Shown in pieces: positions 43,042 to 64,000 of a stretch of DNA of 64,000 nucleotides (the first letter of the stretch is position 1; each line of letters begins with the position of its first letter). The DNA is taken from assembly GCF_003334785.1 (NCBI RefSeq), contig NZ_QOWV01000017.1, one strand, 5' to 3'. The DNA is from Escherichia coli. Its GTDB lineage: Bacteria; Pseudomonadota; Gammaproteobacteria; Enterobacterales; Enterobacteriaceae. The notes beneath the pieces were generated by a model. The model was given only the letters and a program-made list of their open reading frames with translations, had not been told where the DNA came from and searched no databases. A program made the translations under genes and the position numbers.

Positions 43042-43246
43042 ACATACAATAATTAATTGCACTGCCCCGCCAGCGATAATAGCGGGGCTTCGTTTTTCAG
43101 GGGTAACAAAACCCGATACTTCTTCTATTTGCCAGCAACAATGCCTCTCTTCTGTAGCGTTCTTCGGATCTACATCATCCTGAAGTAGCGCGATATACTC
43201 ACTGACTATCTGCATCAGAATATAAAAAGCAATGTTTTTAACCTAT

Positions 43247-43275
43247 AAAAATGGCGCTGTATTTGCGCCATTTTT
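43247..43275. terminator. bidirectional rho-independent terminator between convergent ykgJ and yagU
   Basis: aaaaatggcgc-tgtattt-gcgccattttt: 9-bp GC-containing stem flanked by an A-run and a T-run. Confidence 0.65.
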
Positions 43276-43288
43276 ATCATTCAATGCA

Positions 43289-49639: not shown

Positions 49640-49715
49640 TGGTGCCGATAATAGGAGTCGAACCTACGACCTTCGCATTACGAATGCGCTGCTCTACCAA
49701 CTGAGCTATATCGGC
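49640..49715 (-). tRNA. thrW: tRNA-Thr (anticodon CGU)
   Basis: Reverse complement GCCGATATAGCTCAGTTGGTAGAGCAGCGCATTCGTAATGCGAAGGTCGTAGGTTCGACTCCTATTATCGGCACCA folds as cloverleaf with 7-bp acceptor stem, CGT anticodon and encoded CCA. Confidence 0.92.
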
Positions 49716-60982: not shown

Positions 60983-61873
60983 TTAACGCGTTCGCTGCGA
61001 AAGCACCTGCTGCTTATCCAGCTTTTGCACCAGCGGCTGCACCACTTTATCCCCATGCTGACCAAAGTATTGATACAGCGTATCGGACGCACTTTTGGTC
61101 AGCACCATAATCTCAATGCGCCGGTTGCCCGCGCTTTGCGGATTTTTGGAATCCAGCAGCATCTGGTCCGCCATTGCGCTTACCTGCATCACTTTATCTT
61201 CCGGCATTCCGGCCTCTTCCAGCACCCGACGAGCCGAAAGCGCGCGGTCACCCGAAAGGTTCCAGTTGTTGTAGATATTGTTTTTGTAGGCCATCGCATC
61301 GGTATGCCCGGTAATAATAATTTTATTATCGAGCGAGTCGAACACTGGCGCGAGCTCCACCAGCAGCGTTTTAAAGAACGGCATAATCTTCGCGCTGCCG
61401 CGTTCAAACATATTGCGGTTCTGGTCGTCTTTAATCAGCACGCGTAATCCCTGGGGAACAATCTCCATCTCCAGATTCGCTTCCATATGCGCATCACGGG
61501 CAATGGTGTTGATACTGGTTGCCAGCTCACCAAGCTCGGTGGCGGATTTCTTCTTCAGCAGCGCCGTTTTCTCATTCACATCACGCGCTTTTTTCTCCGT
61601 CTCTTCCGGCACCGCCACGGTGGCAGGTTTTGGCGGATGAGACGGGCTGATTTTATTTAACGGCGACAGCCCACCACCGTTAAAAATCGACTGCCCGTGC
61701 AGCGCGGCGATAATGCTTTCACGCTCGGATTTACTGACGCTGTTGACAATCAACTTTATTGTCGTCACCAAAGGGGCCGAGCGTATTTCCGAGGTTTCTG
61801 CCCGCTTTACCTTAGACGCGATGCCCGGCAAACAGATGGCGATTGACGCCGATCTTAACGCCGGATTGATCAA
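60983..61873 (-). pseudogene. lafU: MotB-like stator protein of the Flag-2 lateral flagellar system, N-terminally truncated
   Basis: ORF has OmpA/MotB-like C-terminal peptidoglycan-binding region but no N-terminal TM helix; its 5' end overlaps the lfhA fragment. Confidence 0.6.
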
Positions 61874-63452
61874 CCAGGCGCAGGCGCAAACCCGGCGTAA
61901 AGATGTTGCCAGCGAGGCCGATTTCTACGGCGCGATGGACGGGGCATCGAAGTTTGTGCGCGGGGACGCCATCGCCGGGATGATGATTCTGGCGATCAAC
62001 CTGATCGGCGGCGTCTGTATCGGGATCTTCAAATACAACCTGAGCGCCGATGCTGCCTTCCAGCAGTATGTGCTGATGACCATCGGCGACGGCCTGGTGG
62101 CGCAGATCCCTTCCCTGCTGCTCTCCACCGCGGCGGCGATTATCGTCACCCGCGTCAGCGACAACGGCGATATCGCCCATGACGTGCGTAACCAGCTGCT
62201 GGCAAGCCCGTCGGTGCTCTACACCGCCACCGGGATTATGTTCGTGCTGGCGGTGGTACCGGGAATGCCGCACCTGCCGTTTTTGCTGTTCAGCGCCCTG
62301 CTTGGTTTTACCGGCTGGCGGATGAGCAAACAGCCGCTGGCGGCGGAGGCGGAAGAGAAAAGCCTCGAAACGCTGACCCGCACCATCACCGAAACCAGCG
62401 AGCAGCAGGTCAGTTGGGAAACCATTCCGCTGATCGAGCCTATCAGTTTAAGCCTCGGTTACAAACTGGTGGCGCTGGTGGACAAAGCACAGGGTAACCC
62501 GCTCACCCAGCGGATTCGCGGCGTGCGGCAGGTGATTTCTGACGGCAACGGCGTGCTGCTGCCGGAGATCCGCATTCGGGAAAACTTCCGCCTTAAGCCC
62601 AGTCAGTACGCCATTTTCATCAACGGCATAAAGGCTGATGAAGCGGATATTCCGGCGGATAAACTGATGGCCCTGCCCTCCAGCGAAACCTACGGCGAGA
62701 TTGACGGCGTGCAGGGGAACGACCCGGCGTACGGGATGCCGGTCACCTGGATCCAGGCGGCGCAGAAAGCGAAGGCGCTGAATATGGGGTATCAGGTGAT
62801 CGACAGCGCCAGCGTGATCGCTACCCATGTAAATAAGATTGTGCGCAGCTATATTCCTGATTTGTTTAACTATGATGATATTACGCAGTTGCATAACCGT
62901 TTATCGTCGACGGCACCGCGTCTGGCGGAAGATTTGAGCGCGGCGCTCAATTACAGCCAGTTGCTGAAAGTGTACCGGGCGCTGCTGACCGAAGGCGTTT
63001 CCCTGCGCGATATCGTCACCATCGCCACCGTGCTGGTCGCCAGTAGCACGGTGACGAAAGATCATATTCTGCTGGCGGCCGATGTGCGCCTGGCATTGCG
63101 GCGCAGCATTACCCATCCGTTCGTTCGCAAGCAGGAGCTGACGGTGTATACGCTGAATAATGAGCTGGAAAATCTGCTGACCAACGTGGTGAATCAGGCG
63201 CAACAGGGCGGGAAAGTGATGCTCGACAGCGTGCCGGTCGATCCGAATATGCTCAACCAGTTCCAGAGTACGATGCCACAGGTGAAAGAGCAGATGAAAG
63301 CGGCGGGGAAAGACCCGGTGCTGCTGGTGCCACCGCAGCTGCGCCCTTTGCTGGCGCGTTATGCAAGGTTGTTTGCGCCGGGGCTGCATGTGCTGTCGTA
63401 TAACGAAGTGCCGGATGAGCTGGAGTTGAAGATTATGGGGGCGTTGATGTAA
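61713..63452 (+). pseudogene. lfhA: FlhA-like flagellar export gate protein of Flag-2, lacking about the first 115 residues
   Basis: ORF aligns with FlhA from GAERI(S/A)EV(S/G)ARF...MPGKQMAIDADLNAG onward; no FHIPEP N-terminal TM region. Confidence 0.65.
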
Positions 63453-63475
63453 GTATCCAGCATTGGTGCACAACT

Positions 63476-63667
63476 GCCGGATGCGGCGTGAACGCCTTAT
63501 CCGTCCTACCGTTCAGGCACAAGTTTGTAGGCATGATAAGACGCGCCAGCGTCGCATCAGGCATCTGCGCATAACTGCCGGATGCGGCATAAACGCCTTA
63601 TCCGGCCTACCGATCCGGCACAAGTTTGTAGGCATGATAAGACGCGCTAGCGTCGCATCAGGCATCT
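63476..63667. repeat. REP array, four units in two inverted pairs
   Basis: tgccggatgcggc(g/a)t(g/a)aacgccttatccg(t/g)cctac at 63476-63510 and 63577-63611; gtaggcatgataagacgcgc(c/t)agcgtcgcatcaggcatc at 63528-63566 and 63629-63667. Confidence 0.85.
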
Positions 63668-63675
63668 GCGCACAA

Positions 63676-64000
63676 TTATGAAATGATACGCTCCCCGGCA
63701 CTAAAATCCGTTACGTCCCCCGCCCAATCGATGGGATATAACCCTCGCGCGACATCGCGATGGAACGTTGAGAATGGCCAATCACTCACTTGCTTTACCC
63801 AACCATGCTTTACTGGATTTATATAAATATAATCAACATGATGCCTATAATCTTTGGTATTGCGGATGGCGTGCTCCCAAAAACGTGGTTGCCAGATATT
63901 TTTCAATCCACAAGCATGGGTAAATTGCTTTTTAATTTCCCGCCAGCGCGAGGAAAAATCATCATCGCCTTCAGGTAATGTCCAGATACAGTGCATATGC
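63676..64000 (-). CDS. rayT: REP-associated tyrosine transposase (RayT/TnpA-REP), 3' part only; 5' end lies beyond the window
   Basis: C-terminal 106+ residues incl. ...HCIWTLPEGDDDFSSRWREIKKQF...; flanked by REP array; HUH motif region truncated by window edge. Confidence 0.75.
   Translation of the reverse strand, partial: HMHCIWTLPEGDDDFSSRWREIKKQFTHACGLKNIWQPRFWEHAIRNTKDYRHHVDYIYINPVKHGWVKQVSDWPFSTFHRDVARGLYPIDWAGDVTDFSAGERIIS

What the first reader, a model, noticed from the sequence alone, without database searches (positions are those of the whole stretch)
63476..64000. REP array adjacent to its cognate RayT transposase
Four REP units in two inverted pairs lie immediately downstream of the 3' end of a rayT-like gene. 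The two REP classes here differ from the REP sequences at 4498-4670 (different consensus), so the window contains at least two REP families. Only one is next to a RayT gene, which matters for inferring which REPs may still be mobilisable.
Basis: partly seen in the sequence, partly recalled or inferred. Interest (0 to 1): 0.35.

Follow-up and report, generated by a model that had tools for sequence, protein, structure and literature searches.

The report
E. coli rayT REPtron BIME-2 array
This is the well-studied cluster of short palindromic repeats (REPs) next to the single rayT gene of Escherichia coli; it is real but ordinary, and it shares a repeat class with the other array in the window instead of belonging to a separate family.

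Summary
Four GTAG-headed REP hairpins (y-, z2+, y-, z2+) lie at 63475-63664 as two tandem 101-nt units. They sit between the stop of the lfhA pseudogene (63452) and the stop of rayT (63676, minus strand, cut by the window end). The pattern is not chance: 8 matches in the window against 0 in 100 shuffles.

The sequence is 100% identical to E. coli K-12 MG1655. The full RayT scores 1.4e-118 over residues 1-165 against PDB 4ER8. So this is the 3' BIME-2 arm of the published E. coli "REPtron".

- The array at 4497-4670 also contains y REPs, 33-34/35 identical to the rayT-side y units.
- Only the partner differs: z1 (30 nt) there, z2 (37 nt) here.
- Both arrays pass the same Rfam model (naRNA4, 78 and 77 bits, gathering score 59.5).
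- Ton-Hoang et al. 2012 showed that purified RayT cleaves y, z1 and z2 substrates, including these 3' BIMEs, acting in trans.

Being next to rayT therefore does not mark a separate cognate or mobilisable class. rayT is single-copy and was found in 3575 of 5426 complete E. coli genomes, whereas REP-containing queries matched in all 5426. Already known; low interest.

The parts
61713..63452 (+). 3' part of lfhA, the FlhA-like Flag-2 pseudogene, convergent with rayT. Its stop codon bounds the array on the left.
   Evidence: ORF list. RefSeq annotation of the identical K-12 sequence reads 'flagellar biosynthesis protein FlhA, incomplete, missing N-terminus'.
63475..63509 (-). y REP (a): GTAGGACGGATAAGGCGTTCACGCCGCATCCGGCA
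   Evidence: ssDNA hairpin of -9 kcal/mol. 34/35 identical to the y REPs at 4543 and 4636.
63510..63526 (.). 17-nt head-to-head (S-type) linker, CGTTCAGGCACAAGTTT
   Evidence: No IHF consensus site.
63527..63563 (+). z2 REP (a): GTAGGCATGATAAGACGCGCCAGCGTCGCATCAGGCA
   Evidence: Hairpin of -9.7 kcal/mol. The 37-nt class is named z2 in PMC3333891, PMC2817692 and PMC8266576.
63564..63575 (.). 12-nt tail-to-tail linker, TCTGCGCATAAC
   Evidence: Sequence read directly; REP ends.
63576..63610 (-). y REP (b): GTAGGCCGGATAAGGCGTTTATGCCGCATCCGGCA
   Evidence: Hairpin of -11 kcal/mol.
63611..63627 (.). 17-nt head-to-head linker, CGATCCGGCACAAGTTT
63628..63664 (+). z2 REP (b): GTAGGCATGATAAGACGCGCTAGCGTCGCATCAGGCA
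63468..63675 (.). The whole BIME-2 array as a tandem repeat: 101-nt period, 2.1 copies, 92% matches.
   Evidence: Tandem Repeats Finder; the repeat finder family D1.
63530..63607 (-). Tail-to-tail y->z2 pair that matches Rfam RF02564 (naRNA4) at 77 bits, above the gathering score of 59.5.
63676..64000 (-). 3' two-thirds of rayT (tnpAREP, formerly yafM): stop codon at 63676-63678 and codons 59-165. This part includes the HUH motif (H59-M-H61) and Tyr115. Codons 1-58 lie beyond the window end.
4497..4670 (.). Comparison array between yahG and yahI: z1 (4497-4526, -), y (4543-4577, +), z1 (4589-4618, -), y (4636-4670, +). Linkers are 16-17 nt head-to-head and 11 nt tail-to-tail. 4546-4615 (+) matches Rfam naRNA4 at 78 bits.

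Best explanation
The feature is the 3' arm of the Escherichia coli 'REPtron'. That is the single chromosomal rayT (tnpAREP, formerly yafM) gene, sited between lfhA and yafL and flanked on both sides by BIME-2 elements, which are alternating y and z2 REP hairpins.

Mechanism as published for this exact sequence:
- RayT is a monomeric HUH/Y1 single-strand DNA endonuclease.
- It binds a folded REP hairpin only when the hairpin carries its 5' GTAG head and the AA/GC stem mismatch.
- It cleaves at CT dinucleotides in the neighbouring inverted REP or in the linker, forming a 5'-phosphotyrosine intermediate.
- It can then transfer strands, so it recombines BIME units.
- It acts in trans on all three E. 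coli REP classes (y, z1, z2) wherever they lie.

Inferred, not shown: this activity produces the copy-number variation of BIME arrays, including this one, in vivo. The array lies between two convergent genes, so it probably also serves as the structured 3' end (transcription barrier or mRNA stabiliser) of the rayT transcript, as shown for other REPs. The array at 4497-4670 is an ordinary y+z1 member of the same REP population, not a different family.
For: - Identity to K-12: window 62900-64000 is 100% identical to K-12 MG1655 and many other strains, annotated 'rayT: REP-associated tyrosine transposase RayT'.
- Protein: NCBIfam equivalog NF047646 at 179 bits (cut-off 80) and PDB 4ER8 chain A over 1-165 at E 1.4e-118. 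HMH at residues 59-61 and Tyr at 115. Y115F is the published catalytic mutant (PMC8266576).
- Flanking on both sides: REPs on the 3' side lie in the window. On the 5' side a z2+/y- pair lies at L001 4370-4453. That y REP carries the exact 32-mer that was co-crystallised (PMC3479197).
- Determinants: all 8 REPs in the window carry GTAG and the GATAAG...GCATC mismatch context.
- Published biochemistry: cleavage of the 5' and 3' REPtron BIMEs, of y, z1 and z2, and of BIMEs from other loci, plus strand exchange (PMC3333891). The flanks are described as BIME-2 in PMC2817692 and PMC3333891.
- rayT is single-copy: 3575 of 5426 genomes have a match, median 1 place per genome. REP-containing queries match in 5426 of 5426 genomes.
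- Copy number varies between strains on the 3' side: 3 to 10 REPs detected in six loci, against always 2 on the 5' side. Spans run from 634 to 842 nt against 748 in K-12.
- No intrinsic terminator pattern was found in 63300-64000, so the REPs are the only structured elements between the convergent genes. REPs between convergent genes correlate with raised expression of both genes (bioRxiv 10.64898/2026.03.23.713779).
Against: - No in vivo RayT-dependent movement or amplification of E. coli REPs has been shown. Ton-Hoang et al. saw only minor differences in REP number between strains with and without tnpAREP (PMC3333891).
- Pfam Y1_Tnp matches RayT only weakly (E 0.082), so the link to IS200/IS605 rests on the NCBIfam model, the solved structure and the literature.
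- The rayT-side REPs are slightly off-consensus. GACGGAT and GCATGAT each add a stem mismatch. They are therefore no better substrates by sequence than the distant array.
- The terminator or stabiliser role at this particular locus is inferred from other loci.
Confidence: 0.93

Rival explanations
1. The rayT-adjacent REPs are a distinct REP family with their own cognate transposase. The array at 4497-4670 belongs to another family that lacks a transposase, so only the rayT-adjacent family may still be mobilisable.
For: The non-y partner does differ between arrays: z2 of 37 nt against z1 of 30 nt, 28-29/37 identical. Only one array in the window is next to rayT.
Against: - y REPs occur in both arrays at 94-97% identity.
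- All units share 21 invariant alignment columns, including GTAGG, GATAAG and GCATC.GGCA.
- Both arrays pass the same Rfam model.
- Purified RayT cleaves y, z1 and z2, and BIMEs from other loci (PMC3333891).
- E. coli has a single rayT locus.
- In strain STEC346 a short 30-nt REP sits inside the rayT-side array itself.
Confidence: 0.03
2. The array matters mainly as a host 3'-UTR element, independent of RayT. It would act as a partly Rho-dependent transcription barrier and a block to 3'-exonucleases for the convergent rayT and lfhA transcripts. Its adjacency to rayT would be a historical relic of how the REPtron arrived.
For: - The array lies exactly between two convergent stop codons, at 63452 and 63676.
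- No canonical intrinsic terminator is present.
- The array folds strongly as RNA: -97.5 kcal/mol, z -4.55.
- REP325 acts as a dual terminator and stabiliser, and convergent gene pairs with REPs show raised expression (bioRxiv 10.64898/2026.03.23.713779).
Against: - This is not exclusive of the main explanation.
- lfhA is a pseudogene remnant, so regulating it has little value.
- BIMEs flank rayT on both sides in every rayT-bearing locus examined and in other species (PMC2817692). A purely regulatory role does not predict that.
Confidence: 0.35
3. The array encodes a nucleoid-associated non-coding RNA of the naRNA4 type that binds HU and helps condense the chromosome.
For: Rfam RF02564 (naRNA4) matches 63530-63607 (-) at 77 bits, above the gathering score of 59.5.
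Against: The model was built from REP325 and in effect describes any tail-to-tail y/z REP pair. It hits the yahG-yahI array equally well, at 78 bits. [quoted passage not shown] Nothing here shows expression of a discrete RNA.
Confidence: 0.05

Closest known systems
E. coli K-12 MG1655 REPtron (tnpAREP/rayT/yafM with flanking BIME-2): Nunvar 2010 (PMC2817692), Ton-Hoang 2012 (PMC3333891), Messing 2012 (PMC3479197, PDB 4ER8), Corneloup 2021 (PMC8266576)
   Same: Identical sequence over 62900-64000. Same gene order, lfhA - BIMEs - rayT - BIME - yafL. Same y and z2 REPs. The protein matches the crystallised one over its full length at E 1.4e-118.
   Different: Nothing at the locus itself. The window comes from a K-12-like strain that is not MG1655: thrW at 49640-49715 has no CP4-6 prophage beside it. 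The window cuts off rayT codons 1-58 and the 5' BIME.
BIME-2 elements of E. coli (y + z2 REPs, short S linker, tandem copies; bound by DNA gyrase)
   Same: Alternating y and z2 units, 17-nt head-to-head and 12-nt tail-to-tail linkers, two tandem copies, and no IHF site.
   Different: The z2 units here read GCATGAT and one y unit reads GACGGAT. Each adds one stem mismatch compared with the y and z1 units of the yahG-yahI array, which read GCCGGAT and GCCTGAT. Gyrase binding was not tested.
IS200/IS605-family insertion sequences (Y1 HUH transposase TnpA bordered by subterminal hairpins)
   Same: A coding sequence bordered by hairpins, an HUH + Tyr catalytic core, and single-strand DNA substrates (PMC3333891, PMC8266576; HMH and Y115).
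   Different: RayT is a monomer, is single-copy and shows no sign of moving itself. Its hairpins are dispersed genome-wide in hundreds of copies (PMC3479197, PMC3333891). The Pfam Y1_Tnp match is only marginal.
Rfam RF02564 naRNA4 (REP325-derived RNA)
   Same: Sequence and structure match above the gathering score.
   Different: A different locus: REP325 lies in the yjdM-yjdN operon. No evidence of expression here. The model also matches the other array in the window, so it marks REP pairs in general.

Membership tests
E. coli REP / palindromic unit (y, z1, z2 classes) | Conserved 5' GTAG tetranucleotide at the foot of the hairpin | tested here: met
   All four units, and the four at 4497-4670, start with GTAGG.
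E. coli REP / palindromic unit (y, z1, z2 classes) | 30-40 nt imperfect palindrome that folds into a stem-loop interrupted by the AA/GC mismatch | tested here: met
   ssDNA folds of -8.6 to -12.2 kcal/mol. All four y and z2 folds show the 2x2 internal loop at GATAAG/GCATC. The z1 minimum-energy fold shows the AA as a one-sided bulge instead.
E. coli REP / palindromic unit (y, z1, z2 classes) | Extragenic and present in many copies per genome | tested here: met
   The array lies between stop codons at 63452 and 63676. Queries containing the array match 5-46 places per genome (median 27, capped at 40 pieces per record) in all 5426 genomes. K-12 has 584 REPs according to PMC3333891.
BIME-2 | y and z2 REPs in alternating orientation with a short head-to-head linker, in tandem copies | tested here: met
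   The order is y-, z2+, y-, z2+, with 17-nt and 12-nt linkers and a 101-nt period repeated 2.1 times. PMC2817692 and PMC3333891 call these flanks BIME-2.
BIME-2 | Binding and cleavage by DNA gyrase | not testable with these tools
   Known from the literature for BIME-2 in general (Espeli & Boccard 1997, cited in PMC8266576). Not examined for this locus.
BIME-1 (considered for the 4497-4670 array) | A single y + z1 pair separated by a long L linker that carries an IHF site | tested here: not met
   The array has two tandem copies and 16-17 nt linkers. No WATCARNNNNTTR site lies in either array. By the definitions quoted in PMC3333891 it fits 'atypical BIME'; that assignment is my inference.
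RayT / TnpAREP (REP-associated tyrosine transposase) | HUH motif and catalytic tyrosine in a Y1-transposase fold | tested here: met
   H59-M-H61 and Y115. NF047646 equivalog at 179 bits for the full protein and 111 bits for the window fragment, cut-off 80. PDB 4ER8 match over 1-165, E 1.4e-118. Pfam Y1_Tnp is only marginal, E 0.082.
RayT / TnpAREP (REP-associated tyrosine transposase) | Gene flanked on both sides by REP/BIME (REPtron) | tested here: met
   The 3' side lies in the window. The 5' side was seen in the identical K-12 locus, L001 4370-4453, and in five further strains.
RayT / TnpAREP (REP-associated tyrosine transposase) | Single copy per genome at a fixed locus | tested here: met
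   3575 of 5426 genomes have a match. Places per genome: median 1, highest 2. The gene lies between the flhA-like gene and yafL in every locus fetched.
RayT / TnpAREP (REP-associated tyrosine transposase) | Binds single-stranded REP and cleaves the adjacent iREP or linker at CT | not testable with these tools
   Published for this exact protein and these exact BIMEs (PMC3333891, PMC3479197, PMC8266576).
   y units are 33-34/35 identical across arrays. There are 21 invariant columns across all 10 units. Both arrays exceed the gathering score of the same Rfam model.
Rfam RF02564 naRNA4 | Score at or above the curated gathering threshold | tested here: met
   77 bits against 59.5. Expression and HU binding were not tested.

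The most novel reading that the evidence does not exclude
In the six rayT-bearing loci compared, the BIME-2 array on the 3' side of rayT ranges from 3 to 10 detected REPs, while the 5' side always has one pair. This could reflect ongoing, cis-preferential RayT-driven amplification at the end of its own gene in natural E. coli populations. That would make this locus a natural read-out of RayT activity in vivo. Variation in REPtron structure between strains is already shown in Ton-Hoang 2012, so only the 3'-versus-5' asymmetry and the cis preference would be new.
Probability: 0.12. Interest if true: 0.35.

Novelty: already known. Interest (0 to 1): 0.08.

Why it matters
The finding matters little beyond correct annotation. 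This locus is the model system on which REP-RayT biochemistry and structure were worked out.

The useful correction is conceptual. In E. coli, adjacency to rayT does not define a private, cognate REP class. One RayT serves the y, z1 and z2 REPs in trans. Mobilisability should therefore be judged from the GTAG head, the stem mismatch and nearby CT sites, and all eight REPs in this window carry the first two. It also warns annotators that ORFs and 'hypothetical proteins' called across such arrays are artefacts.

Tried and rejected
- **Swapped probe labels.** My first probe labels named the 37-nt REP 'Z1' and the 30-nt REP 'Z2' from memory. Ton-Hoang 2012, Nunvar 2010 and Corneloup 2021 use the opposite naming (z2 = 37 nt, beside rayT; z1 = about 29 nt), so I relabelled. 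The Figure 1 legend of Messing 2012 calls the REPtron partner 'z1', which is inconsistent with the other three papers.
- **Length-based classification.** The length rule mislabels 35-nt z2 variants of B2 strains as 'y'. I use that output only for counts and sequences.
- **Pfam Y1_Tnp.** It gave only a marginal hit (E 0.082), so it is not used as support.
- **Terminator scan.** No intrinsic terminator was found in 63300-64000.
- **IHF consensus.** No site in either array, so neither is BIME-1.
- **Other inverted repeats.** Pairs I2, I3 and I5, which link the linkers to the inside of rayT, are short and 82-91% complementary. I treated them as chance.
- **ORFs across the array.** The 43, 62 and 72 aa ORFs were rejected as artefacts of the repeats.
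- **Genome-wide REP census.** Not possible for this strain, because only the window and fetched loci are available. Short REP queries would also saturate the limit of 40 pieces per record.
- **Minus-strand rows.** These 2-piece rows join the 5' BIME to the match and do not measure the 3' array length. I used only plus-strand spans.

Full report
**1. What is in the sequence**

Reading 62400-64000 shows three things in order. A long + strand ORF ends at 63452. About 200 nt of palindromic repeats follow. A minus-strand ORF has its stop at 63676-63678 and runs off the window end.

A pattern built from the shared repeat features, GTAGGNNNGATAAG-N(3-21)-GCATCNGGC, finds exactly eight sites in the 64-kb window. 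It finds none in 100 dinucleotide-preserving shuffles. Four sites are here and four are at 4498-4669.

With the terminal A included, the units here are:

| Unit | Coordinates | Strand | Length |
|---|---|---|---|
| y (a) | 63475-63509 | - | 35 nt |
| z2 (a) | 63527-63563 | + | 37 nt |
| y (b) | 63576-63610 | - | 35 nt |
| z2 (b) | 63628-63664 | + | 37 nt |

The GTAG heads of each y/z2 pair face each other across 17 nt. The two pairs are joined tail-to-tail by 12 nt. The array is therefore a 101-nt unit repeated 2.1 times at 92% match. Each unit folds as single-stranded DNA into the expected stem, 2x2 internal loop, stem and loop, at -9 to -11 kcal/mol and z -2.1 to -3.5. The last REP ends 11 nt before the stop codon.

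**2. Identity of the locus**

Window 62900-64000 is 100% identical to E. coli K-12 MG1655 and to many other strains. There the two genes are annotated as a truncated FlhA-like pseudogene (lfhA, a Flag-2 remnant) and 'rayT: REP-associated tyrosine transposase RayT'.

- The full gene from the identical K-12 locus (L001 3777-4274) encodes 165 aa.
- It scores 179 bits on the NCBIfam equivalog NF047646 (cut-off 80). The 107-aa fragment inside the window alone scores 111 bits.
- It matches PDB 4ER8 chain A ('TnpArep') over residues 1-165 at E 1.4e-118.
- The HUH motif (H59-M-H61) and Tyr115 are both inside the window part. Y115F is the published catalytic mutant (PMC8266576).
- Pfam Y1_Tnp is only marginal (E 0.082).

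Beyond the window, the 5' side of rayT carries one more pair, z2+ at L001 4370-4406 and y- at 4419-4453. That y REP contains the 32-mer GTAGGACGGATAAGGCGTTTACGCCGCATCCG, which was co-crystallised with the protein (PMC3479197). The finding is therefore the 3' arm of the published E. coli REPtron.

**3. Naming**

Ton-Hoang et al. 2012 (PMC3333891), Nunvar et al. 2010 (PMC2817692) and Corneloup et al. 2021 (PMC8266576) call the 37-nt partner z2. They describe rayT as flanked by BIME-2 (y + z2, short linker, tandem copies). The probe labels in my one search had z1 and z2 swapped. The Figure 1 legend of Messing 2012 also says z1. I follow the majority usage.

Neither array has an IHF consensus site. 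The 4497-4670 array, between yahG and yahI, is z1-, y+, z1-, y+ with 16-17 nt head-to-head linkers in two tandem copies. By the definitions quoted in PMC3333891 it is an 'atypical BIME', not a BIME-1. That assignment is my inference.

**4. Are the two arrays different REP families?**

No. The evidence:
- **Multiple alignment.** All ten units (eight in the window plus the two on the 5' side of rayT) share 21 invariant columns: GTAGG, GATAAG and GCATC.GGCA.
- **y units.** Those of the distant array are 33-34/35 identical to the rayT-side y units. That is as close as the rayT-side y units are to one another, at 32-34/35.
- **Partner units.** z2 and z1 are 28-29/37 identical. They differ essentially by a 7-nt indel at the top of the hairpin.
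- **Curated model.** Rfam RF02564 (naRNA4) was built from REP325 and in effect describes a tail-to-tail y->z pair. It matches both arrays above its gathering score of 59.5: 77 bits at 63530-63607 (-) and 78 bits at 4546-4615 (+).

It is met for half of the units and for the family as a whole. What differs is the sub-class of the partner.

**5. Does adjacency tell which REPs are mobilisable?**

- Purified TnpAREP binds only single-stranded REPs that carry the GTAG head and the stem mismatch.
- It cleaves the neighbouring inverted REP or the linker.
[quoted passage not shown] - It also catalyses strand exchange between BIMEs. The authors argue that any spread must occur by mobilisation in trans.

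All eight REPs in the window have the GTAG head and the GATAAG/GCATC mismatch context. The rayT-side units are in fact slightly further from a clean stem than the distant ones. GACGGAT in y(a) and GCATGAT in both z2 units each add a mismatch. Adjacency therefore does not define a private cognate class.

**6. Population context**

- rayT is single-copy. It is found in 3575 of 5426 complete E. coli genomes, with a median of one place per genome.
- This agrees with the loss of rayT in some clades with little change in REP content reported in PMC3333891.
- The spread rows show two kinds of rayT-less locus: only the lfhA end retained, or the array retained without rayT. These fit the two loss routes that paper describes, which are hicAB replacement and precise deletion.

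In six rayT-bearing loci the 5' side always has one z2/y pair. The 3' side varies:

| Strain(s) | REPs detected 3' of rayT |
|---|---|
| EC1515 | 3 |
| K-12 and this window, ST131 strain 5392, BL21 derivative BLK16 | 4 |
| STEC346 | 6, including one short 30-nt REP with a y-type lower stem |
| PSUO2 | 10 |

Plus-strand spans range from 634 to 842 nt against 748 in K-12. Variable BIME number at a locus is a known property (PMC3333891).

**7. Mechanism, and what is shown versus inferred**

Shown in the literature for this protein and this DNA:
- binding of the GTAG-headed hairpin by a monomer;
- Mn2+-dependent cleavage at CT with a 5'-phosphotyrosine link;
- strand transfer.

Inferred:
- that this activity generates the copy-number changes seen between strains;
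- that the array also acts as the structured 3' end of the rayT transcript.

For the second inference, the array lies between convergent stop codons and no intrinsic terminator is present. As RNA it folds at -97.5 kcal/mol, z -4.55. REPs elsewhere act as partly Rho-dependent terminators and mRNA stabilisers (bioRxiv 10.64898/2026.03.23.713779). [quoted passage not shown] I therefore read the Rfam naRNA4 hit as a marker of a REP pair, not as evidence for a nucleoid RNA gene.

**8. Verdict**

The feature is already known in full detail and is of low interest.

Noticed in passing
window 63530-63607 (-) and 4546-4615 (+): Rfam RF02564 'naRNA4' matches both BIME arrays above its gathering score (77 and 78 bits). 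The model seems to recognise any tail-to-tail y/z REP pair, so automated annotation would call many such 'sRNA genes' in E. coli.
   Followed up: partly
L002 457-486 (strain STEC346, 3' side of rayT): A 30-nt REP, GTAGGCCGGATAAGCGCAAGCGCATCCGGC, combines a y-type lower stem with a short z1-like top. It sits inside the rayT-side array, which has 6 REPs in this strain. It looks like a hybrid of REP classes at the REPtron.
   Followed up: no
L003 553-687 and L006 256-587 (B2-type strains ST131 5392 and PSUO2): Several z2-type units beside rayT have GTCG in place of the GTAG head. One unit on the 5' side of rayT in L003 (1294-1328) has ATAG. According to PMC3333891 and PMC8266576 no GTAG mutation is tolerated by E. 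coli RayT, so these units should be inert as binding sites. In PSUO2 the GTCG unit has nevertheless been amplified four times.
   Followed up: no
L006 262-705 (strain PSUO2): RefSeq annotates a 147-aa 'hypothetical protein' (WP_139059028.1) that lies entirely across the 10-REP array. It is almost certainly an annotation artefact. ORFs of 43-72 aa across the array in this window are the same kind of artefact.
   Followed up: partly
window 49640-49715 (-): tRNA-Thr(CGT), thrW, is the attachment site of CP4-6 in K-12 (from my own knowledge) and of a P4-like satellite in strain LR-64-2. By position arithmetic it seems unoccupied here, so the window comes from a K-12-like strain that is not MG1655.
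   Followed up: partly
window 60983-63452: lafU (-) and the N-terminally truncated lfhA (+) overlap head-to-head. They are the Flag-2 lateral-flagella remnants typical of K-12-like strains. Some strains (EC1515, PSUO2) carry a full-length flhA-like gene at this position.
   Followed up: no
window 43084-43283 (-): Rfam RF02111 'IS009' RNA match at 202 bits. Not examined further.
   Followed up: no
summary (E. coli genomes): Nine of the 3587 rayT matches lie on plasmids, and a few genomes have two places. This is unexpected for a gene described as fixed and single-copy. It could reflect chromosomal fragments on plasmids or assembly artefacts.
   Followed up: no
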